Notes under the pieces: model-generated
Database searches by the model: none
Seen by the model: the letters and a program-made list of their open reading frames with translations, nothing else
Told to the model about the DNA's origin: nothing
Made by a program: the position numbers and the translations under genes
Virus record (IMG/VR): IMGVR_UViG_3300005836_000049
Coordinates: 4,734-68,733 of that record
Origin: a virus
Strand: one strand, 5' to 3'
Length of the DNA: 64,000 nucleotides
Shown here: positions 3,710-33,370 of the stretch, in pieces
Numbering within the stretch: the stretch's first letter is position 1
Layout: the number at the start of each line of letters is the position of its first letter

Positions 3710-3806
3710 ACAAGGTACGATAGAGGCGCTCCCCAGGATCAACAGCCCGGAGTAGCATAAATGGGACGGCAGGCCTGGTCGCCGTCTTCCACCACCCAGG
3801 AAGCCA

Positions 3807-4385: not shown

Positions 4386-4453
4386 TCCCCGCGCCCCTTG
4401 GGCTGGAGGGCGTCAAAGTGTCCGGCACCAATCAACGTCACAAGGAAACTCAC

Positions 4454-5398: not shown

Positions 5399-6640
5399 AT
5401 GGAAGCAACTACACTCTCCTGGTCGCCGCAGCAGACCGCAGCGCTTGATGCGGTGCGCGTCTGGCTGGAGAACCGCGCGTGCGGCAGGGACAAGCGCCAG
5501 TGCTTCTACCTCGCAGGGTACGCTGGCTCCGGCAAGACGACCCTCGCGCGCGAGTTCGCGAAGGCGCTCCCTGGGCAGGTCGAATTCGCGGCCTTCACTG
5601 GCAAGGCAGCCAACGTCCTCCGGACGAAGGGTTGCGACCGGGCGCGCACCATCCACTCCCTGATCTACATCCCGGTCAGCAAGTCTCGCGCGCACGCGGA
5701 GGAGCTTCGCAACCTGATCGAGGAGGCGAGAGCCGAAGGCAATCGCGCTGCAGTCGATAGGCTCGAGGTCGATCTCGCCGAGGCGATGGAGCAGCTGCGG
5801 CGCCCGTCCTGGTGCGTCAACCCGGACAGCGACCTGAATGCGGCCGACCTCCTCATCGTCGATGAGGTGTCTATGGTCGACGAGCGCATGGGGGAAGACC
5901 TCTGCTCCTTCGGGATCCCGATCCTCGTGTTGGGCGACCCTGCCCAGCTGCCTCCGGTCGCGGCCAGCCAAGGGTACTTCACCCGCAACGAGCCGGACTT
6001 CATGCTGACCGAGGTTCACCGGCAGGCCCAAGGGTCGCCGGTCCTCAAGCTGGCAACGATCATTCGGAAGGGCGGCACGCTCGACCTGGGCACCTACGGT
6101 TCGTCGGCGGTTGTCGAGCGCAAGACGATCAAGGTCGGCGAGGCGATTGAGAACTTCGACCAGATCATCTGCGGTCGCAACGCAACCCGGCACGCCATCA
6201 ACAAGGCGGTGAGGGAGTTCTGCGGTCAGCAGGGGAAGCTCCCGATGGTCGGAGAGAAGCTGATCTGCTTGCGCAACGATAGGGACTCCGAGTTGCTCAA
6301 CGGATCGTTCTGGGAAGTGTTGAGCGTGCTCGAGGAGGACGATGGCGACACGCTGCGCTTGGTCATCAACTCCCTGGACGAGGGCGGCGCCGGCAATCGG
6401 TTCGTGACCGCCTGGCGCCACCACTTCGAAGGGCGCACAGATCAGTTGTCACCGTGGCGCATTCGCGACCACATGGAGTTCGACTTCGGCTACGCAATCA
6501 CCTGCCACAAGGCGCAGGGATCACAGTGGCCAAGGGTCCTGGTGTACGATGAGTCGGCGATCGCGCGTGCCGACCGGAGCAAATGGCTGTACACAGCCTT
6601 GACGCGCGCCTCCGACTCCGTTACCGTAGTGCAACAATGA
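5399..6640 (+). CDS. RecD/Dda-like SF1 DNA helicase
   Basis: Walker A GYAGSGKTT. LIVDEVSMV (motif II). C-terminal ITCHKAQGSQW typical of RecD/TraA-family helicases. Confidence 0.7.
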   Translation: MEATTLSWSPQQTAALDAVRVWLENRACGRDKRQCFYLAGYAGSGKTTLAREFAKALPGQVEFAAFTGKAANVLRTKGCDRARTIHSLIYIPVSKSRAHAEELRNLIEEARAEGNRAAVDRLEVDLAEAMEQLRRPSWCVNPDSDLNAADLLIVDEVSMVDERMGEDLCSFGIPILVLGDPAQLPPVAASQGYFTRNEPDFMLTEVHRQAQGSPVLKLATIIRKGGTLDLGTYGSSAVVERKTIKVGEAIENFDQIICGRNATRHAINKAVREFCGQQGKLPMVGEKLICLRNDRDSELLNGSFWEVLSVLEEDDGDTLRLVINSLDEGGAGNRFVTAWRHHFEGRTDQLSPWRIRDHMEFDFGYAITCHKAQGSQWPRVLVYDESAIARADRSKWLYTALTRASDSVTVVQQ

Positions 6641-8373
6641 TCGGACCCCAACTCCCGTTCTCGGACCGTCTCCACGCCTCCAAGTACCGCAGCCCGGGGG
6701 AGTCCTTCGGGGAGTCTCAGGACAGAGTGGCTTCGGCCCTCACCACGAACTCTCCGCAGTACCAGGCCACTCGCGAGATCATGCGCGCGATGCGCTTCAT
6801 GGCTGGCGGGCGGGTCCAGAGCGCTGCTGGTGCTCCGAAGCTCGTGACCCCCTACAACTGCTTCGTCTCCGGGACGATCGCAGACTCGTTCGTCCATGGT
6901 GAGGGTTCCATCATGGCGCGAGCCACCGAGGCAGCGGCCACGATGCGGATGGGAGGAGGGATCGGCTACGACTTCAGCACGCTCCGTCCGCGCGGCGCCA
7001 CCATCAAGAAGCTCGGAAGCACGTCATCTGGTCCGGTCGCCTTCATGGACATCTTCAACGCTGTCTGCCACTGCACAGCATCGTCGGGGAACCGGCGCGG
7101 CGCGCAGATGGGCGTGCTGAGAGTGGACCACCCCGACATCGTGGAGTTCATCCAGGCCAAGCAGAACCCCGACCGCCTGACCGGCTTCAACGTCTCGGTC
7201 GCGGTCACAGACGAGTTCATGAAGGCAGTGAGGAACGGCGCCACCTTCGCGCTCCGGTTCGGCGGTGAGGTCTGGGAGGAGATCGAAGCGCGACCGCTCT
7301 GGGAGATGATCATGCGCTCGACCTACCATTGGGCTGAGCCGGGGGTGCTGTTCATCGACCGCATCAACGAGATGAACAACCTCCACTACTGCGAGACGAT
7401 CAGCGCAACCAACCCGTGCGGCGAGCAACCTTTGCCTCCGTTCGGCGCCTGCCTGCTGGGCAGCTTCAACCTGACCAAGTACATGGAGCTTGGTTGTGGC
7501 CCAATGGGATCCGGCCAGTGGACGCGGGACTTCGACATGCTGAAGTTCGGACAGGACATCCCGCTGATCGTGCGAGCGATGGACCGAGTCGTGGACATCG
7601 CGCACTTCCCACTGATGGAGCAGAAGGAGGAGGCGCTGTCGAAGCGGCGCATGGGGTTGGGCATCACGGGCCTCGCCAACGCGGGCGAGGCCATGGGCCT
7701 ACCCTACGGCAGTCCGGAGTTCCTCGAGTTCGAGGCGCTCGTGCTCGGTGTTCTGCGCGACGAAGCGTACCGTGCTTCCGCACTGCTGGCCCAGGACCTC
7801 GGTCCGTTCCCCTTGTTCAAGCGCGATGAGTTCCTCGACGGGAAGTTCGCGGGCACGCTCAGCCCCGACGTCCGTGACCTCATCGCTCAGCATGGCATCC
7901 GGAACTCGCACCTGCTCTCGATCGCTCCGACCGGCACTATCAGTCTCTGCGCGGACAACGTGTCGTCCGGAATCGAGCCGGTCTTCAGCTACAAGACCAA
8001 CCGCATCGTCAAGACCACCGAGGGCGAAGAGACCCACGAGTTGGAGGACTACGGTGTGCGCGTGTTCGGCGTCCACGGCAAGCGCGCGGAGGAGGTCAGC
8101 CCGGCGGAGCACACCAACGTGCTCGCGGTGGCTCAGCAGTACGTCGACAGTTCGGTCTCCAAGACCATCAACCTCCCGAAGGACATCGAGTGGGAGGCGT
8201 TCAAGGACGTCTATATGTCGGCGTGGGACATGAGTTGCAAGGGGTGCACCACCTACCGGCCTGGCAAGCGCGGCGCCGTCCTGACCTCGGCCGACGACGA
8301 CCTCGTCAAGCGCGAGGTCGCTGGCAAGTCCTGCGAGATCGACCCGGTGACCGGAAGGATGAATTGCGAATGA
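6637..8373 (+). CDS. nrdJ: Class II (adenosylcobalamin-dependent) ribonucleotide reductase
   Basis: ATGA overlap with the helicase. Catalytic-site signature SATNPCGEQPL. GGGIGYDFSTLRPRG. PVAFMDIFNAVC. Confidence 0.8.
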   Translation: MIGPQLPFSDRLHASKYRSPGESFGESQDRVASALTTNSPQYQATREIMRAMRFMAGGRVQSAAGAPKLVTPYNCFVSGTIADSFVHGEGSIMARATEAAATMRMGGGIGYDFSTLRPRGATIKKLGSTSSGPVAFMDIFNAVCHCTASSGNRRGAQMGVLRVDHPDIVEFIQAKQNPDRLTGFNVSVAVTDEFMKAVRNGATFALRFGGEVWEEIEARPLWEMIMRSTYHWAEPGVLFIDRINEMNNLHYCETISATNPCGEQPLPPFGACLLGSFNLTKYMELGCGPMGSGQWTRDFDMLKFGQDIPLIVRAMDRVVDIAHFPLMEQKEEALSKRRMGLGITGLANAGEAMGLPYGSPEFLEFEALVLGVLRDEAYRASALLAQDLGPFPLFKRDEFLDGKFAGTLSPDVRDLIAQHGIRNSHLLSIAPTGTISLCADNVSSGIEPVFSYKTNRIVKTTEGEETHELEDYGVRVFGVHGKRAEEVSPAEHTNVLAVAQQYVDSSVSKTINLPKDIEWEAFKDVYMSAWDMSCKGCTTYRPGKRGAVLTSADDDLVKREVAGKSCEIDPVTGRMNCE

Positions 8374-8439
8374 TCAACCCTTCCCTCCGCTAGGAGGGTA
8401 GGATTGATCGCGGGCGCTCGCTGTGCCCTGAAGGAAGCC

Positions 8440-9294
8440 ATGAGACTCGCCTACACTCCGCTCAGCATCGAGGACTTCGGTCGGCATCTGCTGACCTCGC
8501 AGGACCTGGATCCCATCTACGTGGCCTTGGTGGGGGCCAAGTTCGAGCCCAGGGTGCTCCGCCGGTGGCTGATGGTCTACTGGTGCTGCTACGACGCCGG
8601 GGTCAGCTGCTACATTGCAGAGGCGTCCTCCAACGAGGAGTTCTGGCGCCGGATGCTGACCATGGCGGCCAATGGCCTACCCTCTCCCCTCGGTGGGCGC
8701 TGGCGCCGCGCGGCGGAGCGCCGACATTGGCGCGGGGCGAACGCGGCAAGGTCCCTAGCCGACCTAGAGACACGCTACGCCAACGACCCCGAGGCCATGG
8801 CGGACTACTGCGCGCGCGGCGCGGATCTCACCTCAGCATCCTTCCGGGTGCCCTGCGCCGACATCATGAAGCGCGCGCAGGAGCACATCGGGTTCGGCCC
8901 CTGGATCGCCTTCAAGATCGCCGACATGAGCGAGCGGGTGCTCAAGTACCCCACCTCGTTCGACAAGGCCGAGGTCTTCATGTTCAAGGATCCGATGCTC
9001 GCGGCTCGCATGGCGTTCGCAGACCACAACAACACTCATGCCGAGACGACCGAGAAGGCGGTCGCCTGGGCCATCCAGCACCTGGCCAACGAGTTCAAGG
9101 ACATGCCGGCGCCCCCTGGTTGGGACCGCCCGGTCGGGCTGCAGGAGATCGAGACCATCCTGTGCAAGTGGAAGTCGCACGTCAACGGCCACTACCCTCT
9201 CAACAAGGACCTCATCGAGATCCGCCACCATCTGGAACCCTGGAAGCGCTTCTCGTTGTTGGCGCGCGCGTTCGGGAGCGCTCTGCCGGCATGA
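8440..9294 (+). CDS. aGPT-Pplase-like protein 1 (candidate DNA base amino-acid/polyamine transferase)
   Basis: Strong SD gaaggaag before ATG 8440. Shares G-x-[FG]-x-x-A-[FY]-[KQ]-I-x-x-D-[ML] motif (GFGPWIAFKIADM) with the paralog at 13295-14170. Assignment rests on operon context; the pathway is set out under the 8440-16456 finding. Confidence 0.4.
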   Translation: MRLAYTPLSIEDFGRHLLTSQDLDPIYVALVGAKFEPRVLRRWLMVYWCCYDAGVSCYIAEASSNEEFWRRMLTMAANGLPSPLGGRWRRAAERRHWRGANAARSLADLETRYANDPEAMADYCARGADLTSASFRVPCADIMKRAQEHIGFGPWIAFKIADMSERVLKYPTSFDKAEVFMFKDPMLAARMAFADHNNTHAETTEKAVAWAIQHLANEFKDMPAPPGWDRPVGLQEIETILCKWKSHVNGHYPLNKDLIEIRHHLEPWKRFSLLARAFGSALPA

Positions 9295-9779
9295 GGCGCA
9301 TCCTCAAGAATCGGGTCACGACCAAGGTCCGCACCTGGATGTTCTGGTGGTGGATGGAGATCGACGGGCGAAAGCCGGGGGTCAAGTACCTCACGCGGCT
9401 GTACGTGCTCAACACTCCGCTCTTCGGGATCAAGCTCCACTGGTTCCACGCTCCGGATCCCGACGAGCACTGCCACGACCACCCGTGGGCCTTCCTCAGC
9501 CTCATCCTCAAGGGAGGCTACACCGAGCGTCGCGAGTGGTTCTTGCGCGGTGTCCTCATGAGACAGACCGTCAAGACTCGAGGGCGCGGCACGCTTGCCT
9601 TCCGTCGCGCGAATGCGGTGCATCGCATCGAGCACATCCAGTACGGAACCATGACGCTGATCGTCAACGGACCCGTCACACGGGTCTGGGGGTTCTGGAG
9701 CCGTGAGCACGGAATGTCCTTCAAGTTCGTTCCATGGCGCACCTACCTCGGGGTCCCCGAAGTCACGGAGGAAGTGTGA
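9291..9779 (+). CDS. Hypothetical protein with HCHDHPW motif (possible metal-binding/cupin-like)
   Basis: ATGA overlap. 162 aa. His-rich motif HFHAPDPDEHCHDHPW. Confidence 0.4.
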   Translation: MRRILKNRVTTKVRTWMFWWWMEIDGRKPGVKYLTRLYVLNTPLFGIKLHWFHAPDPDEHCHDHPWAFLSLILKGGYTERREWFLRGVLMRQTVKTRGRGTLAFRRANAVHRIEHIQYGTMTLIVNGPVTRVWGFWSREHGMSFKFVPWRTYLGVPEVTEEV

Positions 9780-10618
9780 TCAGCAACCGCGAACTCCTGC
9801 TGATGGACCGCACTCCGGTCGAGGACTACACGAAGGAGTTCGGCCTCTGGGTCAAGCGCGAGGACCTGAGCGCACGCGCGCCGGGTCCGTGCTTCTCCAA
9901 GACTCGAGGGGTGTACGCGCACTTGGCGGCGCGACCTGAGACGATCATCGGGGTGCTCGACACCTACCACTCCCAGGCGGGACACGCGGTCGCCCATGCT
10001 GCCCAACGGCTCGGGAAGCACGTCATCAACTACTACCCGGAGTTCAAGAAGGAACCGGGACCTCGCGAGCCGCAACTGCGCGCTCTCACGCTCGGCGCGA
10101 AGCTGGTTGGGCTGCCCGCTGGTCGCTCCTCGGTTCTGTTCCACCAGGCCAAGAAGCAACTCCGTGAGACCTACCAGGATAGCTACATGATGCCCAATGC
10201 GCTGAAGCTCCGGGAGATGGTGAGCGAGACCGCGCGCGAGGTCGGCTGTCTGGTAGACGAGGGTCACTTCAAGACCGTGATCATTCCGATCTCTTCGGGG
10301 ACGATCGCAGCCGGAGTCATCAGGGGATTCCTCGACTACGATCCGGAGTTCCTCCCGCGCTTCATCCTCCACATGGGGTACGATCGATCAGAGTCACAGA
10401 TCATGACCTACCTCTCTGAGATGGTCGGCTGCGGCTTCCAGGACGCCAAGATCACTCTCGTCAACGAACACTACGGCTACAAGGACAAGGCAACGAACGG
10501 TCCGACTCCTCCGTGGCCGTGCTCCCCGTACTACGATCTCAAGGCGTTCCGCTGGTGGATGCGAGGCGGCGCCCTCGGGATCACCGGCACATACCCTCTC
10601 TTCTGGAACATCGGCTGA
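9776..10618 (+). CDS. PLP-dependent enzyme, fold type II (threonine synthase/dehydratase-like)
   Basis: GTGA overlap start. PLP-lysine motif FSKTRG (compare FKDRG/FKIRG). Glycine-rich ISSGTIAAG loop. Confidence 0.6.
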   Translation: MISNRELLLMDRTPVEDYTKEFGLWVKREDLSARAPGPCFSKTRGVYAHLAARPETIIGVLDTYHSQAGHAVAHAAQRLGKHVINYYPEFKKEPGPREPQLRALTLGAKLVGLPAGRSSVLFHQAKKQLRETYQDSYMMPNALKLREMVSETAREVGCLVDEGHFKTVIIPISSGTIAAGVIRGFLDYDPEFLPRFILHMGYDRSESQIMTYLSEMVGCGFQDAKITLVNEHYGYKDKATNGPTPPWPCSPYYDLKAFRWWMRGGALGITGTYPLFWNIG

Positions 10619-12042
10619 TGGAACAAGACGCAGTGGAAGACGGCGGCGCAGAACACGCCGCATGGCTCAAGGCGCCCGTGGACGGTGAAGACACGCGCGA
10701 GCGCTACCAGTACTACATGCGCCCCGAGCCGCGCGAGAACCTCGGTGAGATCGTCGAGGAGATGGATGAGCTCACCGGCAAGGTGCTGCGCTCTCGCCTC
10801 GTCGGCGTGCCGATGATGCGTGGCGGTGACCGCAAGCCGCTCAAGGTGTACCTCGATCCGTTGCCGCACATCCGCATCCCCGATGCGAAGAAGCTCCAAG
10901 GCTGGTACCAGGCACGTCACTGGAAGGACGAGACCGGATCGAACCTCCGCAAGCGTCCGCGCCCGTGCTACACCGACGCCATGCTGACCGAACCCTACGG
11001 CGGCTACTGCACCGTGGGCTGCGCCTTCTGCTACATCAACTCCGGGTTCAAGGGTTACCGAGGCTCCGGTCTGATCTCGGTGCCCGTCAACTACGGCGCG
11101 CAGATCGAGCGGCAGCTGGCGAAGTTCAAGACGGCCACGGCAGGCTACTTCTCGTCCTTCACGGATCCGTTCCTCCCGCTCGAGGACTTGTACCACAACA
11201 CGCAGTCCGGCGCGATGGCGTTCGATCGCGCTGGGCTGCCGGTCTTCTTCTTGTCCAGGCTCCACTACCCTGGTTGGGCCTTCGACCTGCTCGCGAAGAA
11301 CAAGTACAGCTACATGCAGAAGTCGATCAACGCTCCCGACCAGGAGCGTTGGAAGGCGCTGAGTCCCGGGGCGATCTCGCTTGCGGACCACTGCGCCGAG
11401 ATCGCAGAGGCACGCAAGCGCGGCATCTACGTCTCCATCCAGGTCAACCCGATCATCGCTGGGGTCATCACCCACGACGACGTCGTGGCGACGTTCGAGA
11501 TGCTCGCCAAGGCTGGCGCCAACCACGTCATCATCAAGTTCGTCGAGGCGGGGTTCAATTGGGCGCCGACGATGATCGAGCGCATCCAGAAGCGCTTCCC
11601 AGGCAAGCCTGGCGAGGACTTCGCGGCGCTGTTCACGCAGAACATCGGCGGCCAGCGGACGATCGCTGAAGAGTACCGCATGCAGGGTCACCATCTGTAC
11701 CGTGCTGCCGCGACTCGCTTGGGCATGACCTACGCCACGTGCTACGAGTACAAGTGGGAACGTGATGCCCAAGGGGAGCCGGTGAACAAGATCGGGATCT
11801 CCGTGGGCGGAGACTTCCTCACGGCGGATCAGTGCCACGGACACCGCGTACCGATGTTCACTCGCGAGGCACTCAACGAACCCTTCAAGGAGTTCGTTGC
11901 ATGCCCCCCATCAGGATGCCTCACGTGCGCGTCGGGGACTCCCAAGGCAAGTCCCTGCGGATCCAAGCTCTTCGGTCTCGCCAAGGCACTCGACTACGCT
12001 GACTTCAAGGTCAGCATCCGGGAGGACGCTGCCAGTGAGTGA
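10618..12042 (+). CDS. Radical SAM enzyme
   Basis: CxxxCxxC cluster CTVGCAFCY. 474 aa. Start overlaps the PLP-enzyme stop. Confidence 0.7.
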   Translation: MEQDAVEDGGAEHAAWLKAPVDGEDTRERYQYYMRPEPRENLGEIVEEMDELTGKVLRSRLVGVPMMRGGDRKPLKVYLDPLPHIRIPDAKKLQGWYQARHWKDETGSNLRKRPRPCYTDAMLTEPYGGYCTVGCAFCYINSGFKGYRGSGLISVPVNYGAQIERQLAKFKTATAGYFSSFTDPFLPLEDLYHNTQSGAMAFDRAGLPVFFLSRLHYPGWAFDLLAKNKYSYMQKSINAPDQERWKALSPGAISLADHCAEIAEARKRGIYVSIQVNPIIAGVITHDDVVATFEMLAKAGANHVIIKFVEAGFNWAPTMIERIQKRFPGKPGEDFAALFTQNIGGQRTIAEEYRMQGHHLYRAAATRLGMTYATCYEYKWERDAQGEPVNKIGISVGGDFLTADQCHGHRVPMFTREALNEPFKEFVACPPSGCLTCASGTPKASPCGSKLFGLAKALDYADFKVSIREDAASE

Positions 12043-12418
12043 CCCGAACCCGTTCACGGTGAACCGGCGAATCAAGCTCGCCGACTGGCACGCCGAGGGG
12101 ATCGCTCGTTTCGGCGAGAACCCGCTCAAGTGGAAGTTCGTCTGTCCCAGCTGCGGCATGGTTCAGTCGGCGGAGGACTGGAAGGCTTATGGCATCCCCT
12201 TCCGTGACGTGGACCGCCAGGTGGCGTTCAACTGCCTGGGAAGGCGGATCAAGAGCGTCTGCCCCACCGCTGACGTGGTAGAGTTCGGCGACATGAACAA
12301 GGGATTTGGTTGCAACTACACGGGTGGCGGACTCTTCCGCGTCAACCCGGTCGAGGTCGAGTTCGGCTTCGAACCGAACCTCGAGATCCGTGAAACCTTC
12401 GAGTGGGCACCATCATGA
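12035..12418 (+). CDS. Cys-rich hypothetical protein (zinc-ribbon-like CPSCG...CPT)
   Basis: GTG start overlapping the radical SAM stop. Located within the modification operon. Confidence 0.4.
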   Translation: MSDPNPFTVNRRIKLADWHAEGIARFGENPLKWKFVCPSCGMVQSAEDWKAYGIPFRDVDRQVAFNCLGRRIKSVCPTADVVEFGDMNKGFGCNYTGGGLFRVNPVEVEFGFEPNLEIRETFEWAPS

Positions 12419-13041
12419 TCGTCAACCTGAGAGGCGGCAGTGGAAGTGGCAAGAGCACCGTGGTCAAGGAGATCATGAAGTGCTACGACACGCGCATCCC
12501 GTTCTTCATCGAGGGGCGCAAGCAACCGCTGTGGTACGATCTCAGCGACTCTCAGAACCCGGAAGGCCGGGTTCTGAGAGTCCTCGGTCATTACGAAATC
12601 CCTTGTGGCGGGTGCGACACGATCGGCGCGATCGGTGAGGAGCCTGCGATGAAGGTCATACACCGACTCGTTCGCGAGGCGAACAACGCCAACCTCCATG
12701 TGTTGTACGAAGGCGTCATCCTGACGACTCTCGCCGGTGATCTGATCCAGATGGTTCAGGAGAAGCTCCCCATCGTGGTTGTCAATCTGACCTCGGACCT
12801 CGAGACTTGCTTGCGCGGCATTACCGCGCGGCGCCTCGCGAAGCAAGGCATCACCAACCCGACCGACGAACAGACTGCCGCGATGAAGGCATCCCTCGGC
12901 GAGTCCACGATCAAGAACAACATCGGCAAGCTGAAGAGTGCCTACAAGACTGCCCGTCAACTCAAGGCAGCAGGTGCTTCAGTGTTCGACTGCGACCGCG
13001 AGGAAGCGGTCAACCTCATCAAGGAGACCTTCGACCTATGA
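12415..13041 (+). CDS. P-loop nucleotide/nucleic-acid kinase (candidate 5-hydroxymethyluracil DNA kinase)
   Basis: ATGA overlap. Walker A GGSGSGKST near N-terminus. Context with ThyA-like and aGPT-Pplase-like genes. Confidence 0.55.
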   Translation: MIVNLRGGSGSGKSTVVKEIMKCYDTRIPFFIEGRKQPLWYDLSDSQNPEGRVLRVLGHYEIPCGGCDTIGAIGEEPAMKVIHRLVREANNANLHVLYEGVILTTLAGDLIQMVQEKLPIVVVNLTSDLETCLRGITARRLAKQGITNPTDEQTAAMKASLGESTIKNNIGKLKSAYKTARQLKAAGASVFDCDREEAVNLIKETFDL

Positions 13042-13298
13042 CCGCCATCAAGCTGTTCGAGACCAAGGACCACGCCTTCAACATCAGCTTCGAGGTCAAG
13101 CTCACGCGCCTCCTGCTCGGTGGTGCGTACACCGAGGCTCCCTTCAGTCGTGAGGTGAAGATGCGCATGGTGACCCTCCATCTTCTCGTCCTGTGCCTCT
13201 GCTTCGTCGTCTTCTCGAACAACGAGGCGTCGGCGGAGGAAGTGCGGCGCGAGTTCGAAGCGCGCGGTCGCATCCTCGGCAAGAAGAAGCGCAAGTGA
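13038..13298 (+). CDS. Small membrane protein
   Basis: Overlapping start. Hydrophobic segment LHLLVLCLCFVVF. Basic C-terminus. Confidence 0.35.
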   Translation: MTAIKLFETKDHAFNISFEVKLTRLLLGGAYTEAPFSREVKMRMVTLHLLVLCLCFVVFSNNEASAEEVRREFEARGRILGKKKRK

Positions 13299-14170
13299 AG
13301 GAACTGGCCGACTATCCGAATCGCGGCCTGGGCATGCCAGGCTACTTCGCTTTCCTCAGAGAGCGCTACGAGATTCTGTTGAACCGGAAGCGCGGCCTGT
13401 CCCAACCTTGGACAGCGGATCCCGTCCTCCAGGAGTGGCGCTTCTGCAACGTGCGCCGGGAGGACGACAAGGTCACCATCTGGTTCCGCGAGAACATCCG
13501 GGGACCGCTGCAAGAAGACCCCTCGGTCTTCTTTGCAACGGTCGCCTTCCGTTGGTTCAACACCATCGAGACGGGCGAGGCGATTCGGCCGTGGCTGCTC
13601 GGCCCGTGGGACCGCAAGGAAGTGCTCGCTGTCCTACGCAAGCAGCTGAAGGCAGGGAAGAAGCTCTTCACCGGCGCCTTCGTCGTGAACTCGAAGGGTG
13701 GCAAGCGCAAGCACATCGACGTCCTCGACAACCTGGATTGGGTGCGCAAGCATCTGATACCGTTCCACGACTCGTTTCCCAGGACGAAGGAGTCTGTATT
13801 CCGATACCTCCTCCAAGTCCCTCGCCTGGGCAACTTCGCAGCCTACCAGATCGTCGTCGATCTTCAGTACACCTATCTCCTCCGCGATGCGACGGACCTC
13901 AACACCTTCACGGTGGCTGGCCCAGGGTGCGCGCGCGGGATCGGCCTCATGTGGGAGGACGACGAGAAGCGGTTCTCGTTCACAAGCAAGAAGGATCAGG
14001 ACGACATGCTGTGGATCATGCAGCATGCCCTCACGTGCTCGCGCTCCGAACGCAACTGGCCGAAGGACTGGCCTCCCTTTGTGCTGTCGGACATCGAGAA
14101 CGGATTCTGCGAGTATTCGAAGTGGCGCCAGGGTCACGCTGGTAGTAGGCTCAAACGGAGATTCAGATGA
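13295..14170 (+). CDS. aGPT-Pplase-like protein 2 (paralog of 8440-9294)
   Basis: GTGA overlap. Motif LGNFAAYQIVVDL matches GFGPWIAFKIADM of paralog 1. Confidence 0.4.
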   Translation: MKELADYPNRGLGMPGYFAFLRERYEILLNRKRGLSQPWTADPVLQEWRFCNVRREDDKVTIWFRENIRGPLQEDPSVFFATVAFRWFNTIETGEAIRPWLLGPWDRKEVLAVLRKQLKAGKKLFTGAFVVNSKGGKRKHIDVLDNLDWVRKHLIPFHDSFPRTKESVFRYLLQVPRLGNFAAYQIVVDLQYTYLLRDATDLNTFTVAGPGCARGIGLMWEDDEKRFSFTSKKDQDDMLWIMQHALTCSRSERNWPKDWPPFVLSDIENGFCEYSKWRQGHAGSRLKRRFR

Positions 14171-14922
14171 AGCTGTACATCAAGACGCTCGGACGAGTTC
14201 ACAAGCAACACACCCTTCGTTTCGTTCCCGATGCGACGCTGGTCGTCCAGGCGCACGAGGCCGACGCCTACAAGGCAGCGTGGCCGACCAAGGACGTCCT
14301 CGTATTGCCGGAGTCGGTCAAGACGATCGGTGCCACCGATCGCTACCTGCTCGAGGTTGCAGCGCGGCGCGAGCCCGATATGAAGGTCGTTCTGCTCGAC
14401 GACGATCTGACGTTCTACAGAAGGATCCCGGACAGCACCAAGCTGCGTCTGTGCAACGCGCACGACATGGACATCCTCTGGAACGAGGTCGAGACTCAAC
14501 TGGACGAGTACGTGCACGTGGCAGTCAGCGCGCGCGAGGGCAACAACCGGCTCGACCTCCCCTACGAGTTCAACATCCGCTACATGCGCGTGCGCGCCTA
14601 CAACGCCATGCGCCTCCCGGATGGCCTGGACATCGATCGGATCAACTGCCTGGGCGACTTCGATGTCAACCTACAGCTGCTGGCTGCCGGCCTTCCGAGT
14701 TGCGTGCTGACGGAGTACGCCCAGAATCATCCGGGGACTCAGGCGCCAGGCGGATGTACCACTCAGCGCACCAACGACACGCACAAGGCTGAGACGCAGA
14801 AGCTCGCCGACCTCTGGCCTGGTATCGTCAAGCTGGTCCAGAAGGAGAACAAGGGTGGTGGCGAGTTCGGCCATCGCCAGGAAGTCGTCGTGTCCTGGAA
14901 GAAGGCACTCAAGAAGCAATGA
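14167..14922 (+). CDS. Putative GT-A-like glycosyltransferase / nucleotidyl-sugar transferase (DxD)
   Basis: ATGA overlap. VVLLDDDLTFY DxD-like motif after a beta-strand. 251 aa. Function is an inference. Confidence 0.35.
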   Translation: MKLYIKTLGRVHKQHTLRFVPDATLVVQAHEADAYKAAWPTKDVLVLPESVKTIGATDRYLLEVAARREPDMKVVLLDDDLTFYRRIPDSTKLRLCNAHDMDILWNEVETQLDEYVHVAVSAREGNNRLDLPYEFNIRYMRVRAYNAMRLPDGLDIDRINCLGDFDVNLQLLAAGLPSCVLTEYAQNHPGTQAPGGCTTQRTNDTHKAETQKLADLWPGIVKLVQKENKGGGEFGHRQEVVVSWKKALKKQ

Positions 14923-15941
14923 ACATCATCCAAGCTCGGAACGTCCAGCAGGCACTCGTCGAGGGCTGCTACCAGATGACCCAAGTCGGGGTCGAGCGTG
15001 AGTCTCGCAATGGCAAGGTGCTGGTGATGCCTGGCGTCACTGTGACGGAATACCAGCGCCCGTGGGAACGGGTTCTCGCAGACCCGGATCGTGATGCCAA
15101 CCCCTTCTTCCACTTCTTCGAAGCGCTCTGGATGATCGCCGGGCGCCGCGATGTCGCATGGCCGAAGAAGTTCAATTCGAAGTTCGACGCCTACTCCGAC
15201 GATGGCGTCATCTTCAACGGAGCCTACGGTTGGCGCTGGCGCAATCAGTTCGGCGTCGATCAACTGATCATGATCGTCGAAGCGCTCCGGAAGAATCCGG
15301 ACTGCCGTCGACAGGTGCTGGCGATGTGGGACGGGAACAAGGACCTCGGCAACCCCTCCAAGGACGTTCCCTGTAACCTGCTCGCGACGTTCCAGATCGG
15401 AGCGAAGCGCGAGTTGAACATGGTCGTCACCAACCGCTCCAACGATCTCATCTGGGGAGCCTATGGGGCGAACGCGGTTCACTTCTCGATGCTGCTGGAG
15501 TACATGGCCGCTCACATCGGAGTCGAGAGCGGCACGTACACGCAGGTGTCTTCCAACACGCACATCTACGAACCGCACTGGCCTCTGATGCGCAAGCTCG
15601 CGGACAAGGCACCGATGCCTCCGTCTCGGCGCGAGGACCTGTACAGCATAGGTCTGATGGAACCGTTCCCGATGGTCAACATCCGTCCGACCGAATGGGA
15701 CCGCGAGTTGTACGTGTTCCTCGAGCTTCAGCACCGTGGAGCGTACCAGGATCCGTTCTTCGCCAACGTGGCGGTTCCGATGTTCATGTCCTACGTGGCG
15801 TTCAGCGATCGCGAGAATCCCGAGCGGTTCAACAACGCCAAGAGTCTCTCCATGAGCATCAAGGCGCCTGATTGGCAGGCTGCTTGCCTGGAATGGCTCA
15901 CCAGGAGAGAACGTGCCGCGCTCGAAAAGGCGGCTTCGTGA
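14919..15941 (+). CDS. Thymidylate-synthase-family pyrimidine (dUMP/dCMP) hydroxymethylase
   Basis: ThyA-like motifs RRQVLAMWD (compare RRIIVSAWN) and catalytic VPCNLLATFQ (compare PPCH..FQF). ATGA overlap. Confidence 0.7.
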   Translation: MNIIQARNVQQALVEGCYQMTQVGVERESRNGKVLVMPGVTVTEYQRPWERVLADPDRDANPFFHFFEALWMIAGRRDVAWPKKFNSKFDAYSDDGVIFNGAYGWRWRNQFGVDQLIMIVEALRKNPDCRRQVLAMWDGNKDLGNPSKDVPCNLLATFQIGAKRELNMVVTNRSNDLIWGAYGANAVHFSMLLEYMAAHIGVESGTYTQVSSNTHIYEPHWPLMRKLADKAPMPPSRREDLYSIGLMEPFPMVNIRPTEWDRELYVFLELQHRGAYQDPFFANVAVPMFMSYVAFSDRENPERFNNAKSLSMSIKAPDWQAACLEWLTRRERAALEKAAS

Positions 15942-16456
15942 TGGACAAGCAGATTCTCCGAGTGATCCAGGCACGTGAGTGCTCGGTCGTCGAGCGGGCG
16001 CACACGTTGCCCCACCACGGGTCCTACACCAATGGCCAGCACAGCCACGATGCCGTGTCGCTGTACCTCATCCTCTGCCCTGACCCGCAGCTGGAGGTCG
16101 TCAAGGCGATCCACGTGCACGACTACGGTGAGCGCTGGTGCGGAGATCTCCCGGCTCCGACCAAGTGGGCACAGCCGGAGATCGGGCGCCTCATGCATAA
16201 CCTCGAGATGCACTGTCTCGACCGCATGGGCTTCCACTTCGTCCTCAAGGAGTCGGACATGATCTGGCTCAAGGCGGTCGACTCGCTCGAGCTTTGGCTC
16301 TGGGCTTGGGCTCAGATCGCGATCGGCAACACGAACGCGGTGGCCGTGCTCGGCAACCTCAACGCCTACTTCGAGCGGACGGAACTGCCGCCGGAGGTAG
16401 TACACTTCATCAAGACCTTCAAGTGGACCCGCACGGCGGACATCATCCCAAAATGA
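15941..16456 (+). CDS. HD-domain 5'-deoxynucleotidase (YfbR-like)
   Basis: H..HSHD ... HVHDYGERWCGDLPAPTK matches the YfbR HD motif architecture. Confidence 0.6.
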   Translation: MDKQILRVIQARECSVVERAHTLPHHGSYTNGQHSHDAVSLYLILCPDPQLEVVKAIHVHDYGERWCGDLPAPTKWAQPEIGRLMHNLEMHCLDRMGFHFVLKESDMIWLKAVDSLELWLWAWAQIAIGNTNAVAVLGNLNAYFERTELPPEVVHFIKTFKWTRTADIIPK

Positions 16457-16830
16457 ACATCGACCCCTTCGACCTCAGCACCAACAAGACCCCCTCTACC
16501 TCCGACAACCTCAACCACCTGTCGGACATCTCCAGAGAGGATGTGGATGGCCTCCTCAAGGCGCAGAAGTCCTACGGCGATAGTTGGAAGCGTCGCGGAG
16601 GCGTCGGTGCCTTCATGATGCTCGCGCGCAAGTGGGATCGTCTGGAGGTCGCCATGACCGGCCCGGTCGGATTGGCCGGTCCCTACGACATCTTCTCCCG
16701 CGCTGAGCAGGACAAGCGTGCGGAGGGCCTCATCGACGACATCCGCGATCTTCGGCGCTATCTCCTGTTGGTCGAATCGGAGTTGCGCGCTCGTGGCACC
16801 ATCCACGGCAAGCACCGGGACAACTCGTGA
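16453..16830 (+). CDS. Hypothetical protein
   Basis: ATGA overlap with the HD gene. 125 aa. Confidence 0.4.
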   Translation: MNIDPFDLSTNKTPSTSDNLNHLSDISREDVDGLLKAQKSYGDSWKRRGGVGAFMMLARKWDRLEVAMTGPVGLAGPYDIFSRAEQDKRAEGLIDDIRDLRRYLLLVESELRARGTIHGKHRDNS

Positions 16831-17081
16831 TCCGGGTCACGGTGGAACTCGTCCCACACGGCGACGAGTCGCGCGCGAAAGTTCTCTGCCAGGGCATGAT
16901 CGCCAACGACGGATCAGGTACGCTTCGCAAGGGCAACTACCGATTCCAATTGTCCCAGCAGGGACGGCTGTCGGCGACTGCTCGCAAGGGTGAGGTCAAG
17001 GACTTCCCCCGTCTCTCCAAGAACGTCTGGCACCTGCTCCGGCTCGTGCTCAACACGGCCTTCGGGCCGAAGGAAGCCTGA
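16827..17081 (+). CDS. Hypothetical protein
   Basis: 84-aa ORF, coupled start. Confidence 0.35.
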   Translation: MIRVTVELVPHGDESRAKVLCQGMIANDGSGTLRKGNYRFQLSQQGRLSATARKGEVKDFPRLSKNVWHLLRLVLNTAFGPKEA

Positions 17082-17083
17082 TC

Positions 17084-17512
17084 ATGAACACTGGAAGGAT
17101 AGTCAGAGTCCGAAACCGAGTAGCTCCGAAAGATCTTCCCAAGGATCAAGTTCTGAGGGTCATCCACTGGTACAACAGCTTCGTGGAGATCTGGAACTCA
17201 GCTGAGACTACCTTCCAACAGAAACCGTACAAGAAGGTTCCCAGCCCCACGGAGATCTACGACATCAGTCTGTTCGTCACCTCGTTGTCGTCCGCTCCCA
17301 AGAGAGTCTACATTCGAAGACGGGACACCGGGGATTGCTACGAGATCAATCCTGGTCGGGGTTGGATGTACTACTCGGACAACAAATCGTTGGCCGTTCA
17401 CCGAAGCCTGTTGGACTCCGAGAAGGTGGTTTGGGTTCGCAGGGTAACGCCAGAGTCGGAAGACTCTAGCTTCAAGAGCGAATTCTCTCCGATCGATCAC
17501 AACAACTCTTGA
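17084..17512 (+). CDS. Hypothetical protein
   Basis: 142-aa ORF with lower GC-style codon use (many AT-rich codons). Possibly recently acquired. Confidence 0.4.
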   Translation: MNTGRIVRVRNRVAPKDLPKDQVLRVIHWYNSFVEIWNSAETTFQQKPYKKVPSPTEIYDISLFVTSLSSAPKRVYIRRRDTGDCYEINPGRGWMYYSDNKSLAVHRSLLDSEKVVWVRRVTPESEDSSFKSEFSPIDHNNS

Positions 17513-19807: not shown

Positions 19808-20290
19808 ATGCTCAGTGATGACCAGCTGACTCGCAAGTGGGACAATCGCTTCATGGCGCTCGCTCGCCACATCGCCATGTGGAGCAAGGATCCGAGCACC
19901 AAGGTAGGCGCCGTGATCGTCGATGAGAAGCGTCGAGTGATCGGGCATGGCTACAACGGATTCCCTCGAGGAGTCGAGGATTCCGACGAACGCTACTCCG
20001 ACCGCGAGGTCAAGTACAAGCACGTGGTCCACGCTGAGCTCAACGCCATCCTCAATTCTCGGGGTGGCGTGGAAGGTTGTACCCTCTACACAACGCTCGA
20101 GCCTTGCACCGAGTGCGCCAAGGCGATCATCCAGAGCGGAATCACGCGCGTGGTCCTCCCCGACCGCGAAGGCGAGACGATCGATGAGCTCAAGGTGCGT
20201 TGGGGCGAGAATCAGACCGTCGCCTACAACATGATGGACGAAGCCAAGCTGGACGTTGGCGACACGGCGTTGGGGGACGACGACCTGTGA
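19808..20290 (+). CDS. dCMP deaminase
   Basis: Zinc motifs HAELNAI and PCTECAKAI (H-x-E / PC-x-x-C). Confidence 0.8.
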   Translation: MLSDDQLTRKWDNRFMALARHIAMWSKDPSTKVGAVIVDEKRRVIGHGYNGFPRGVEDSDERYSDREVKYKHVVHAELNAILNSRGGVEGCTLYTTLEPCTECAKAIIQSGITRVVLPDREGETIDELKVRWGENQTVAYNMMDEAKLDVGDTALGDDDL

Positions 20291-32456: not shown

Positions 32457-32507
32457 AATCTACCGTCCCCTCGTTGAAGACGAGGGTACGCTAAGCTCAG
32501 GAAGCCA

Positions 32508-33345: not shown

Positions 33346-33370
33346 TGCTCGTCGGAAGCGCTGGCCTGGG

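What the first reader, a model, noticed from the sequence alone, without database searches (positions are those of the whole stretch)
8440..16456. Translationally coupled operon resembling a thymidine hypermodification pathway
Twelve genes chained by ATGA/GTGA overlaps encode: two paralogous aGPT-Pplase-like proteins, a metal-binding (cupin-like) protein, a fold-type-II PLP enzyme (FSKTRG), a radical SAM enzyme (CTVGCAFC), a Cys-rich protein, a P-loop kinase (GGSGSGKST), a small membrane protein, a ThyA-family hydroxymethylase and an HD 5'-nucleotidase (with a GT-A-like protein as a twelfth member, treated separately below). Upstream in the same transcriptional direction sit class II RNR; dCMP deaminase, dNMP kinase and MazG lie elsewhere in the genome. 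This is the established logic of phage 5-hydroxymethyl-dU to hypermodified-thymine pathways: kinase activates 5-hmdU in DNA, aGPT-Pplase transfers an amino acid or polyamine, PLP and radical SAM enzymes tailor it. The exact enzyme set here differs from every described pathway I recall, which points to a distinct final base. This is the best candidate for the functional system in the window.
Basis: partly seen in the sequence, partly recalled or inferred. Interest (0 to 1): 0.8.

Follow-up and report, generated by a model that had tools for sequence, protein, structure and literature searches.

The report
M6-type thymidine hypermodification operon plus glycosyltransferase
This is a phage operon that matches, enzyme for enzyme, the already characterised pathway that phage M6 uses to turn thymine into 5-(2-aminoethyl)uracil, with one unusual extra: a DNA sugar-transferase gene that normally belongs to a separate kind of thymine-modification module.

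Summary
Window 8440-16456 (+) carries 11 real genes, not 12, packed by start/stop overlaps. The chain continues through two more genes to 17081.

The enzyme set is not unprecedented, though. g1 (AADT), g3 (PLP), g4 (radical SAM), g6 (P-loop kinase), g10 (dUMP-type ThyA homolog) and g11 (HD) are syntenic orthologs of Pseudomonas phage M6 gp51, gp52, gp53, gp54, gp58 and gp59. That is the reconstituted 5-NedU pathway, and the catalytic residues are all conserved.

What differs from M6:
- a small cupin (g2);
- a CxxC VVA0879-family protein (g5);
- an 86-aa protein (g7);
- a TAGT/GT-A DNA glycosyltransferase (g9), which sits where M6 has Nmad5.

Among the roughly 150 radical-SAM loci fetched (some occur in both collections), none has the glycosyltransferase. 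Among 80 glycosyltransferase loci, none has AADT, PLP or radical SAM. Only this window and one sister contig (L080) combine the two; a 1.65-kb fragment (L251) has the local g8-GT-ThyA arrangement.

Best reading: an M6-type 5-NedU pathway, plus probable glycosylation of remaining 5-hmdU. This is a new variant of a known kind, of moderate interest.

The parts
6583..8373 (+). g0: class II (B12-type) ribonucleotide reductase, immediately upstream. Context gene, not part of the modification chemistry.
   Evidence: Pfam Ribonuc_red_lgC 3e-105. 59-63% identical to the RNRs of M6, Pam3 and PhiJL001 at the syntenic position.
8440..9294 (+). g1: amino acid:DNA transferase (AADT, aGPT-Pplase clade 2). 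Ortholog of M6 gp51 and PaMx11 gp46 (glycine:5-PmdU transferase).
   Evidence: Pfam ADDT 8e-22. PDB 25qc_A 1e-80 and 8z2m_A (PUGT) 3e-78. Conserved: QEIETILCKWKSH (Glu/Cys dyad), FGPW, RRHWR and FMFKDP. 49% identical to M6 gp51. GAAGGAAG Shine-Dalgarno before the ATG at 8440.
9291..9779 (+). g2: small cupin with a His/His/Glu/His metal site. Role in the pathway unknown. Absent from M6.
   Evidence: phrog_4786 7e-32. AF2 model pLDDT 86.5. Foldseek top hits are ergothioneine and cysteine dioxygenases and other cupins, E about 1e-6. H62, H64, E79 and H111 are invariant. The family also occurs in phages with no hypermodification genes in the stretches inspected.
9776..10618 (+). g3: fold-type II PLP enzyme. 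Ortholog of M6 gp52, the C-alpha-GlyT decarboxylase.
   Evidence: Pfam PALP 7e-11 and phrog_7093 4e-65. 48% identical to M6 gp52 and 54% to the Pam3 homolog. Lys42 in FSKTRG aligns with M6 gp52 K36, the predicted Schiff-base lysine.
10618..12042 (+). g4: radical SAM enzyme. Ortholog of M6 gp53, the N-alpha-GlyT to C-alpha-GlyT isomerase.
   Evidence: phrog_9252 1e-192. 59-61% identical to the M6, MW2 and Pam3 homologs. CTVGCAFC is identical to the M6 gp53 cluster motif. Six further invariant Cys residues could carry a second cluster.
12035..12418 (+). g5: CxxC VVA0879-family protein, function unknown. Absent from M6. The start codon is uncertain (12035 or 12059).
   Evidence: NCBIfam NF041591 CxxC_VVA0879 2.4e-24, above cut-off. 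Conserved after the rSAM gene in the closest lineage. A VVA0879-family gene also sits upstream of HMUDK_hel in L081 and L253, which lack rSAM.
12415..13041 (+). g6: P-loop kinase. Syntenic ortholog of M6 gp54, the 5-hmdU DNA kinase (5-HMUDK).
   Evidence: Walker A GGSGSGKST. Full-length alignment with M6 gp54, MW2 gp14 and Pam3 gp49 at 26-30% identity. Pfam HMUDK_HMUD1 gives only E 0.0017, below cut-off. Orthologs 56-60% identical to g6 (L246, L250) carry PF18748.
13038..13298 (+). g7: 86-aa protein of unknown function with one hydrophobic stretch. Membrane location is not established.
   Evidence: No family hit. 72% identical in L080 and 44-49% in L169 and L170. Kyte-Doolittle 19-residue maximum is 2.16 here but only about 1.2 in L169 and L170.
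13295..14170 (+). g8: stand-alone HMUDK_hel protein (aGPT-Pplase clade 1). Ortholog of M6 gp55 and a distant paralog of the AADT. Function not determined experimentally.
14167..14922 (+). g9: TAGT-family GT-A DNA glycosyltransferase, occupying the slot where M6 has Nmad5.
   Evidence: Pfam TAGT 6e-18 and phrog_842 9e-39. R10, D78-D80 and D164-F165 are conserved, matching the R...DDD...EDY/F motifs of phage GT-A DNA glycosyltransferases. 36% identical to PhiJL001 gp22. 79% identical in L080.
14919..15941 (+). g10: ThyA-family enzyme with uracil-type specificity. Predicted dUMP hydroxymethylase and ortholog of M6 gp58.
   Evidence: Pfam Thymidylat_synt 4e-24 and phrog_5131 9e-118. 51% identical to M6 gp58. 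The catalytic Cys152 is present. Asn185 aligns with E. coli ThyA N177, where the cytosine-specific MilA has Asp.
15938..16456 (+). g11: HD-domain protein, YfbR-like putative 5'-deoxynucleotidase. Ortholog of M6 gp59.
   Evidence: Pfam YfbR-like 3e-5, at 24.1 bits just under the 25.9 cut-off. phrog_6047 6e-45. 40-46% identical to M6 gp59 and MW2 gp18.
16453..17081 (+). g12 (16453-16830) and g13 (16827-17081): two further overlap-coupled small genes of unknown function that continue the chain.
   Evidence: ATGA and GTGA overlaps. g12 is 50% identical to Pam3 gp54 and co-occurs with the GT module in 70 of 80 loci. g13 matches phrog_8231.
19808..20290 (+). dCMP deaminase, a dUMP supply gene downstream of DNA polymerase A (17516-19621).
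   Evidence: Pfam dCMP_cyt_deam_1 2.5e-26. DNA_pol_A 1.9e-39.

Best explanation
The operon is an ortholog of the Pseudomonas phage M6 thymidine hypermodification cluster, carried by an uncultured tailed phage at about 63% GC.

INFERRED MECHANISM (by orthology with enzymes reconstituted in vitro for M6)
1. dCMP deaminase supplies dUMP.
2. g10 hydroxymethylates dUMP. The HD protein g11 and the MazG-like protein plausibly shape the nucleotide pool.
3. The phage PolA incorporates 5-hmdU in place of some T.
4. After replication, the kinase g6 phosphorylates 5-hmdU in DNA to 5-PmdU.
5. The AADT g1 forms a Cys-C6 adduct, expels phosphate and adds glycine, giving N-alpha-glycinylthymine.
6. The radical SAM enzyme g4 shifts the glycine from N- to C-linkage.
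7. The PLP enzyme g3 decarboxylates it to 5-(2-aminoethyl)-dU (5-NedU).

THE ADDITION
g9 is a TAGT/GT-A DNA glycosyltransferase. Together with g8 (stand-alone HMUDK_hel) and g10, it reproduces a second module that is widespread and has no kinase. It most likely glycosylates 5-hmdU residues that the kinase route does not consume. The virion DNA would then carry two thymine derivatives.

UNASSIGNED
g2 (cupin), g5 (VVA0879) and g7 are lineage-specific passengers or accessory factors with no assignable step.

SHOWN VERSUS INFERRED
Shown here: family memberships, catalytic residues, synteny and co-occurrence statistics. Inferred: every chemical step, the choice of glycine, and the acceptor of the glycosyltransferase.
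For: CORE PATHWAY
- Synteny and identity with M6 gp51-gp59.
- Functions of M6 gp51, gp52, gp53 and gp54 were established biochemically (PMC8989533).
- g1 matches the solved glycinyltransferase at 3e-78 with the Glu/Cys dyad, FGPW, the Arg-rich loop and the FxD motif conserved.
- The g3 lysine aligns with M6 gp52 K36.
- The g4 CTVGCAFC motif is identical to M6 gp53, and further invariant Cys residues are present.
- The g6 Walker A motif and full-length alignment match M6 gp54.
- g10 has Asn at the uracil-selecting position.

GLYCOSYLTRANSFERASE
- Pfam TAGT above cut-off, with the R/DDD/DF motifs.
- In all 80 IMG/VR loci with a g9-like GT there is a ThyA homolog carrying Asn and the catalytic Cys.
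- 75 of those 80 loci have a g8-like protein, and none has AADT, PLP or rSAM.
- None of the 74 IMG/VR and 80 metagenome rSAM loci has the GT.
- The hybrid arrangement is conserved in sister contig L080 (GT 79% identical). The local g8-GT-ThyA arrangement recurs in fragment L251.
Against: - No chemistry was measured. Identities to the M6 enzymes are only 24-59%, so substrate choice could differ (glycine, or the acceptor of the GT).
- The kinase match to Pfam HMUDK_HMUD1 is below threshold.
- A ThyA homolog with Asn could in principle be an ordinary thymidylate synthase.
- The kinase and the GT would compete for the same hydroxyl. Nothing shows both are active, or on which fraction of sites.
- g2, g5 and g7 are retained inside the cluster in all complete close relatives. 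That could mean they do take part in the chemistry.
Confidence: 0.72

Rival explanations
1. Distinct final base. The extra genes (cupin g2, CxxC protein g5, g7 and the glycosyltransferase g9) act in series with the M6-type enzymes. The end product would then be not 5-NedU but an oxidised and/or glycosylated derivative of it or of a glycinyl-thymine intermediate.
For: - g2, g5 and g7 keep their positions inside the cluster in every complete close relative: L080, L169, L246, L247, L248 and L250.
- g2 has a dioxygenase-like cupin metal site.
- The closest relatives swap tailoring enzymes (aldo-keto reductase plus FAD oxidoreductase instead of PLP in L008 and L246), so this lineage does vary its end product.
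Against: - The g2 family is common in the replication regions of phages; the stretches inspected in AH2, Estes and Brevundimonas Delta show no hypermodification genes.
- g2 and g5 homologs sit next to each other in L081, and a VVA0879-family gene is in L253. Both loci lack AADT, PLP and rSAM, so these genes are not tied to those enzymes.
- The GT is absent from five of the six complete close relatives, so it is not an integral step.
- GT-A DNA glycosyltransferases are known to act on hydroxymethyl groups or on sugars, not on amines.
Confidence: 0.17
2. 5-NedU only. The glycosyltransferase is irrelevant to thymine modification: inactive, acting on 5-hmC or on a non-DNA acceptor, or a recently acquired passenger. 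The phage would then be chemically equivalent to M6.
For: - The GT is an insertion found in only two full-length relatives.
- The third GT-A motif reads GDF rather than EDF.
- Characterised TAGT members act on 5-hmC or on glucosyl-5-hmC.
Against: - The GT is overlap-coupled on both sides (ATGA) to g8 and g10 and is 79% conserved in L080.
- All 80 related GT loci pair it with a uracil-type ThyA homolog.
- MW202897 carries SDF at the same motif position, so Glu is not required in this clade.
- No cytosine methyltransferase, TET or dCMP hydroxymethylase was seen in the operon.
Confidence: 0.08
3. The AADT g1 transfers an amino acid or amine other than glycine. The downstream rSAM and PLP steps would then yield a homolog of 5-NedU with a different side chain.
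For: - g1 is only 49-51% identical to the two proven glycine transferases.
- Other clade 2 members use serine (ViI gp247) or putrescine (PhiW-14 gp109).
Against: - g1 matches the glycinyltransferase structures end to end at 1e-80 and 3e-78, with the catalytic-pocket motifs conserved.
- It sits in the M6/PaMx11 PHROG family (phrog_6364, 1e-88).
- It is followed by orthologs of the two enzymes that act specifically on glycinyl-thymine.
Confidence: 0.03

Closest known systems
Pseudomonas phage M6 / YuA-like (Yuavirus, Mesyanzhinovviridae) 5-NedU thymidine hypermodification cluster, gp51-gp59 (Lee et al. 2018 PNAS; Lee et al. 2022 NAR)
   Same: - Same gene order: RNR, AADT, PLP, rSAM, P-loop kinase, HMUDK_hel paralog, ThyA homolog, HD protein, PolA, dCMP deaminase.
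- Identities of 24-59%.
- Identical rSAM CTVGCAFC motif. Conserved AADT Glu/Cys dyad, PLP lysine and Walker A motif.
   Different: - The window has g2 (cupin) between AADT and PLP, g5 (VVA0879) after rSAM, and g7 after the kinase.
- It has a TAGT glycosyltransferase where M6, MW2 and Pam3 have an Nmad5 protein.
- There is no nucleotide-level similarity to any deposited phage.
Alphaproteobacteria phage PhiJL001 (Keylargovirus) gp19-gp25 and the metagenomic 'HMUDK_hel + GT-A + ThyA' module
   Same: - Stand-alone HMUDK_hel (36% identical), TAGT glycosyltransferase (36%), uracil-type ThyA homolog (43%), HD protein, then PolA, in the same order.
- The same trio occurs in 75 of 80 IMG/VR loci.
   Different: - Those loci have no AADT, PLP or rSAM (0 of 80). 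No kinase was seen in the two loci checked.
- PhiJL001 also keeps Nmad5.
- The DNA modification of these phages has not, to my knowledge, been determined.
Pseudomonas phage PaMx11 / Ab18-type 5-AcNmdU cluster (gp46-gp49), with solved structures of gp46/PUGT and gp47/NGTO
   Same: Shares the kinase and the glycine:DNA transferase. g1 matches PUGT (8z2m) at 3e-78.
   Different: PaMx11 tailors N-alpha-GlyT with an FAD lyase and an acetyltransferase. The window uses rSAM and PLP.
TET-associated / T-even TAGT GT-A DNA glycosyltransferases (Pfam PF20691) and the trypanosome base J glucosyltransferase
   Same: g9 is a member by Pfam score and carries the R / DDD / (x)DF motifs.
   Different: - Characterised phage members glycosylate 5-hmC or extend glucosyl-5-hmC.
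- Here the partner hydroxymethylase is uracil-type, so the inferred acceptor is 5-hmU, as in base J. That has not been tested.

Membership tests
M6-type 5-NedU thymidine hypermodification pathway | ThyA-family dUMP hydroxymethylase supplying 5-hmdUMP | tested here: inconclusive
   ThyA family, catalytic Cys152 and uracil-selecting Asn185 are all present, and g10 is 51% identical to M6 gp58. Hydroxymethylase cannot be separated from methylase activity by sequence here.
M6-type 5-NedU thymidine hypermodification pathway | P-loop 5-hmdU DNA kinase (5-HMUDK; M6 gp54) | tested here: met
   Syntenic position, Walker A motif and full-length alignment at 26-30% identity. Orthologs in L246 and L250 carry PF18748. 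Caveat: g6's own Pfam hit is below cut-off (E 0.0017).
M6-type 5-NedU thymidine hypermodification pathway | Clade 2 aGPT-Pplase / AADT with the essential Glu and Cys | tested here: met
   Pfam ADDT 8e-22. E238 and C242 lie in QEIETILCKWKSH, aligned to the solved glycinyltransferase. FGPW, RRHWR and FMFKDP are conserved.
M6-type 5-NedU thymidine hypermodification pathway | Radical SAM isomerase with CxxxCxxC and a second Cys set (M6 gp53) | tested here: met
   59% identical to M6 gp53. CTVGCAFC is identical. C375, C406, C429, C434, C437 and C447 are invariant.
M6-type 5-NedU thymidine hypermodification pathway | PLP-dependent decarboxylase with the Schiff-base lysine (M6 gp52 K36) | tested here: met
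   PALP 7e-11. 48% identical to gp52. K42 aligns with K36.
M6-type 5-NedU thymidine hypermodification pathway | 5-NedU replaces part of T in virion DNA | not testable with these tools
   Requires nucleoside LC-MS/MS of virion DNA.
aGPT-Pplase clade 1 / HMUDK_hel (Pfam PF18723) | Profile match, and the HhH-glycosylase-like helical fold shared with AADT | tested here: met
TAGT / phage GT-A DNA glycosyltransferases (Pfam PF20691) | Profile match above the gathering score, and the R...DDD...EDY/F active-site motifs | tested here: met
   66 bits against a cut-off of 27.5. R10, D78-D80 and D164-F165 are invariant among relatives. The first residue of the third motif is Gly here, Glu in PhiJL001 and Ser in MW202897.
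TAGT / phage GT-A DNA glycosyltransferases (Pfam PF20691) | Acceptor is a hydroxymethyl-pyrimidine in DNA | not testable with these tools
   Only indirect evidence: 80 of 80 related loci carry a uracil-type ThyA homolog.
Cupin superfamily (thiol-dioxygenase-like) | Beta-barrel fold with His/His/Glu/His metal ligands | tested here: met
   AF2 pLDDT 86.5. Foldseek hits ergothioneine and cysteine dioxygenases at E about 1e-6 and TM about 0.57. H62, H64, E79 and H111 are invariant. No Pfam hit. Substrate unknown.
VVA0879 CxxC family (NCBIfam NF041591) | Profile match above cut-off | tested here: met
   85.3 bits against a cut-off of 37, E 2.4e-24. The function of the family is unknown.

The most novel reading that the evidence does not exclude
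This phage and its sister L080 make DNA with two chemically different thymine replacements drawn from one 5-hmdU pool. One is 5-NedU, made by the kinase/AADT/rSAM/PLP route. The other is a glycosylated 5-hydroxymethyluracil, a bacteriophage counterpart of base J, made by the TAGT enzyme g9. The stand-alone HMUDK_hel protein g8 retains the AADT-like Glu-x3-Cys motif and may act as a catalytic or base-flipping partner of the glycosyltransferase rather than of the kinase. The same kinase-less trio (g8-like, GT and uracil-type ThyA) in 75 of 80 metagenomic loci would then mark a widespread, uncharacterised glycosyl-5-hmU modification in environmental phages.
Probability: 0.35. Interest if true: 0.65.

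Novelty: new variant of a known kind. Interest (0 to 1): 0.45.

Why it matters
The core adds nothing to the known chemistry. It is one more M6-type cluster, of a sort already reported from metaviromes.

The value lies in three other points.
- It is a natural fusion of two thymine-modification modules that are otherwise mutually exclusive in the roughly 230 loci examined. That gives a defined system for asking how a kinase route and a glycosyl route share one 5-hmdU pool, and whether doubly modified DNA evades more host nucleases.
- It points to a function for the stand-alone HMUDK_hel/aGPT-Pplase-1 proteins. No role has been shown for these since M6 gp55 proved dispensable in vitro. They track with the glycosyltransferase and the ThyA homolog rather than with the kinase.
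- The relatives show that the slot between RNR and HMUDK_hel is a swappable cassette: PLP/rSAM, aldo-keto reductase/FAD oxidoreductase/rSAM, inositol-phosphate synthase/RNA ligase, or GT alone. That makes it a useful place to look for new DNA bases.

Tried and rejected
- Megablast of the whole operon against 50,697 phage records: no match. Relatives are detectable only at protein level.
- Exact-sequence look-up of the rSAM protein: not on record. The source contig (JGI, 70,898 bp) surfaced only through g2, g8 and g9.
- Single-protein scan of viral contigs with g4 returned two loci. An alignment query was needed.
- PDB sequence searches for g2 and g9, and a profile search for the g8 family, found nothing meaningful. 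Fold comparison was required for g2 and g8.
- Promoter and terminator scans gave nothing above chance. There are no tRNAs in the window.
- I considered g2 as a pathway dioxygenase and judged this less likely, because its family is common in phages whose inspected regions show no such pathway.
- I considered g7 as a membrane protein and left it open, because the hydrophobic stretch is not conserved in strength.
- I considered a cytosine (5-hmC) target for g10 and g9 and rejected it because of the Asn at the N177-equivalent position in all 135 ThyA homologs examined.

Full report
1. WHAT IS IN THE SEQUENCE

The window is 62-64% GC throughout. Reading-frame GC3 (0.78-0.88) picks out one unbroken series of + strand genes:
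- g1 8440-9294
- g2 9291-9779
- g3 9776-10618
- g4 10618-12042
- g5 12035/12059-12418
- g6 12415-13041
- g7 13038-13298
- g8 13295-14170
- g9 14167-14922
- g10 14919-15941
- g11 15938-16456

Eight of the ten internal junctions are ATGA or GTGA 4-nt overlaps. g3/g4 share one base. The g5 start is uncertain. Two more overlap-coupled genes follow, g12 16453-16830 and g13 16827-17081. After them come g14 and DNA polymerase A at 17516-19621.

The interval therefore holds 11 genes, not 12. A GAAGGAAG ribosome-binding site precedes the ATG at 8440. Promoter- and terminator-like sites are no more frequent than chance between 5 and 21 kb.

The window is phage DNA. It encodes a large terminase, a portal protein, a major head protein and a minor tail protein. 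The same proteins occur on a 70,898-bp JGI metagenome contig.

2. WHAT THE GENES ARE

Pfam, PHROGs and NCBIfam give these assignments:

| Gene | Assignment |
|---|---|
| g1 | ADDT (amino acid:DNA transferase), 8e-22 |
| g2 | phrog_4786, no Pfam hit |
| g3 | PALP, 7e-11 |
| g4 | Radical_SAM (weak) and phrog_9252, 1e-192 |
| g5 | CxxC_VVA0879, 2.4e-24 |
| g6 | P-loop NTPase with a sub-threshold HMUDK_HMUD1 hit |
| g7 | nothing |
| g8 | HMUDK_hel, 8e-50 |
| g9 | TAGT, 6e-18 |
| g10 | Thymidylat_synt, 4e-24 |
| g11 | YfbR-like HD, 3e-5, just under cut-off |

Upstream is a class II RNR. Downstream are a dCMP deaminase at 19808-20290 and a MazG-like protein at 32478-32903. I did not find a dNMP kinase.

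3. IT IS THE M6 PATHWAY

There is no nucleotide-level match to any deposited phage. At protein level the radical SAM and AADT genes find Pseudomonas phages M6 and YuA, Bordetella phages MW2 and CN1, and Pseudanabaena phage Pam3.

The annotated M6 region runs: RNR, gp51, gp52, gp53, gp54, gp55, gp56, gp57, gp58 (thymidylate synthase homolog), gp59 (HD), PolA, dCMP deaminase. Window genes match as follows:

| Window gene | M6 gene | Identity |
|---|---|---|
| g1 | gp51 | 49% |
| g3 | gp52 | 48% |
| g4 | gp53 | 59% |
| g6 | gp54 | 24% |
| g8 | gp55 | 31% |
| g10 | gp58 | 51% |
| g11 | gp59 | 40% |

Lee et al. (PMC8989533) established the M6 functions biochemically:
- gp54 is the 5-hmdU DNA kinase.
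- gp51 is a glycine:DNA transferase that makes N-alpha-glycinylthymidine.
- gp53 is a radical SAM isomerase to C-alpha-GlyT.
- gp52 is a PLP decarboxylase that gives 5-NedU.
- gp55 was not needed.

The defining residues are all present in the window.
- The g4 cluster motif CTVGCAFC is letter-for-letter that of M6 gp53. Six further Cys residues are invariant.
- g3 K42 aligns with M6 gp52 K36.
- g1 aligns end to end with the solved glycinyltransferase PUGT (8z2m, 3e-78) and with 25qc (1e-80). It keeps the essential Glu and Cys (QEIETILCKWKSH), the FGPW helix, the Arg-rich loop and the FxD wedge.
- g6 keeps the Walker A motif and aligns over its whole length with gp54. Its closer orthologs carry PF18748.
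- g10 has the catalytic Cys and an Asn where E. coli ThyA has N177. The cytosine-specific CMP hydroxymethylase MilA has Asp there. That Asn selects uracil and Asp selects cytosine is established knowledge of the ThyA family. g10 is therefore dUMP-directed.

The same paper already reports metagenomic contigs 'identical or nearly identical' to M6, and a combinatorial pool of tailoring genes.

4. THE TWO 'aGPT-PPLASE-LIKE' PROTEINS

Lee et al. 2018 list both M6 gp51 and gp55 as aG/PT-PPlases.

Sequence evidence for a g1-g8 relationship is thin. hhalign gives a probability of 18%, although it lines up GFGPW with LGxFxAY and the Glu-x3-Cys motifs.

Structural evidence is clear.
- The g8 model is very confident (pLDDT 96).
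- Foldseek's top three hits are also PUGT.
- In 51 g8 homologs, C272 is invariant and E268 is at least 90% conserved.

So g8 is a distant paralog of the AADT that keeps a candidate catalytic dyad. Its function is not known.

5. WHAT DIFFERS FROM M6

g2, g5, g7 and g9 have no counterpart in M6, MW2 or Pam3.

g2. It folds as a cupin (pLDDT 86.5). Its Foldseek top hits are ergothioneine and cysteine dioxygenases, and it has invariant His/His/Glu/His ligands. Its family is scattered through the replication regions of mycobacteriophages and of Gordonia, Burkholderia and Brevundimonas phages. The stretches I inspected there show no hypermodification genes.

Lineage conservation of g2, g5 and g7. These three hold their places in every complete close relative: L080, L169, L246, L247, L248 and L250. 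However, g2 and g5 homologs lie side by side in L081, and a VVA0879-family gene is present in L253. Both loci lack AADT, PLP and rSAM. I read these genes as features of the lineage, not as steps of the 5-NedU chemistry, though that is not excluded.

g7. It has a hydrophobic stretch that is strong only here and in L080.

g9. It carries the R / DDD / (x)DF motifs of phage GT-A DNA glycosyltransferases. It sits exactly where M6, MW2 and Pam3 have an Nmad5 protein.

6. THE GLYCOSYLTRANSFERASE BELONGS TO A SECOND MODULE

Its best relatives among deposited phages are PhiJL001 gp22 and a Manatee Spring virus (36%).
- PhiJL001 has HMUDK_hel, GT, Nmad5, ThyA homolog, HD and PolA, but no AADT, PLP or rSAM.
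- MW202897 has GT, hydroxymethylase and HD.

Co-occurrence in the 80 IMG/VR loci that encode a g9-like GT:

| Feature | Loci |
|---|---|
| ThyA homolog (all with Asn and the catalytic Cys) | 80 |
| PolA | 78 |
| g8-like protein | 75 |
| g12-like protein | 70 |
| AADT, PLP or rSAM | 0 |

Two of these loci were inspected in detail. Both have a stand-alone HMUDK_hel and no kinase nearby.

The converse also holds. None of the 74 IMG/VR loci or the 80 metagenome loci with the rSAM gene has the GT. The two sets overlap to some extent.

Within the window's own lineage (rSAM 73-91% identical), L169, L246, L247, L248 and L250 join g8 directly to the ThyA homolog. Only L080 has the GT (79% identical). 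A 1.65-kb fragment, L251, shows the same g8-GT-ThyA overlaps. L253 belongs to the same phage group and has a GT-only cassette.

The window is thus a rare hybrid of two modules that are otherwise mutually exclusive.

7. MECHANISM I COMMIT TO

Inferred by orthology:
1. dCMP deaminase makes dUMP.
2. g10 makes 5-hmdUMP.
3. PolA incorporates it into DNA.
4. g6 phosphorylates 5-hmdU in DNA.
5. g1 replaces the phosphate with glycine through a Cys-C6 adduct.
6. g4 isomerises the glycine linkage.
7. g3 decarboxylates the product to 5-NedU.

Inferred from co-occurrence: g9 glycosylates 5-hmdU that escapes the kinase. In M6 only about 30% of T becomes 5-NedU, so a second fate for the 5-hmdU pool is plausible.

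Confidence is about 0.85 that the core is an M6-type pathway. It is about 0.35-0.4 that the DNA carries a glycosylated 5-hmU as well.

8. VERDICT

It is wrong in claiming that no precedent exists.
- The finding is a new variant of a known kind.
- Interest is moderate. The hybrid, the g8 association and the swappable cassette are worth a specialist's attention, but the chemistry of the core is already solved.

Noticed in passing
L081 3490-9756 (JGI 3300022723 contig, 69.6 kb); also L082: A relative of the same phage group fills the slot between RNR and HMUDK_hel with a myo-inositol-1-phosphate synthase homolog, a DSPc phosphatase, an HMUDK-type kinase and an RNA-ligase-family protein. It has no AADT, PLP or rSAM there. 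This may be an undescribed thymidine modification.
   Followed up: no
L008 5680-8000 (= L168); L246 3252-4977: The closest relatives replace the PLP decarboxylase with an aldo-keto reductase plus a DAO-type FAD oxidoreductase, while keeping AADT, the radical SAM enzyme and the kinase. Their end product is probably different from 5-NedU.
   Followed up: partly
L086-L165 (80 IMG/VR loci), e.g. L103 6367-9795: A widespread module with no visible kinase: stand-alone HMUDK_hel, TAGT glycosyltransferase, uracil-type ThyA homolog, g12-like protein and PolA. No AADT, PLP or rSAM. It predicts a common, uncharacterised glycosyl-5-hmU DNA modification in environmental phages.
   Followed up: partly
L253 8430-12698 (GCA_024449935.1 contig, 60 kb): The same phage group (SNF2, DUF7307, Pam3_Gp34, helicase and RNR backbone) with a GT-only cassette: a TAGT gene right after RNR, then DUF6915, VVA0879 and HMUDK_hel. 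This shows that the cassette is exchanged as a unit.
   Followed up: no
L249 7001-7894 (JGI 3300037310 contig, 70 kb): A g8-like HMUDK_hel protein (51% identical) lies beside Eco57I-type and BsuBI/PstI-type restriction genes and a Prok-E2/ThiF/JAB gene. The neighbourhood does not look like a phage replication module.
   Followed up: no
window 8383-8398: A perfect 6-bp hairpin (CCCTCC GCTA GGAGGG) sits 10 nt after the RNR stop codon, in the only sizeable intergenic gap (66 nt) before the operon. No T-run follows it.
   Followed up: no
window 17084-17512 (g14): The last small gene before PolA has atypical composition (GC at codon positions 0.45/0.41/0.69, against about 0.6/0.4/0.83 for its neighbours) and no family hit. 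L080 carries an HNH-domain gene at that position. It is likely a recent insertion.
   Followed up: no
L080 14917-15337: The sister contig has a 420-bp gap between its g8 and GT genes. The gap translates to a GIY-YIG-like fragment (GVYEIR...GSYVGAS), suggesting a homing-endonuclease remnant at the junction where the GT sits.
   Followed up: no
window 3756-5281: There are homologs of Pam3 gp33 (DUF7307) and Pam3 gp34. Together with the Pam3 gp59-like protein at 33221-33685, they link this phage's backbone to the cyanophage Pam3 as much as to the Mesyanzhinovviridae.
   Followed up: no
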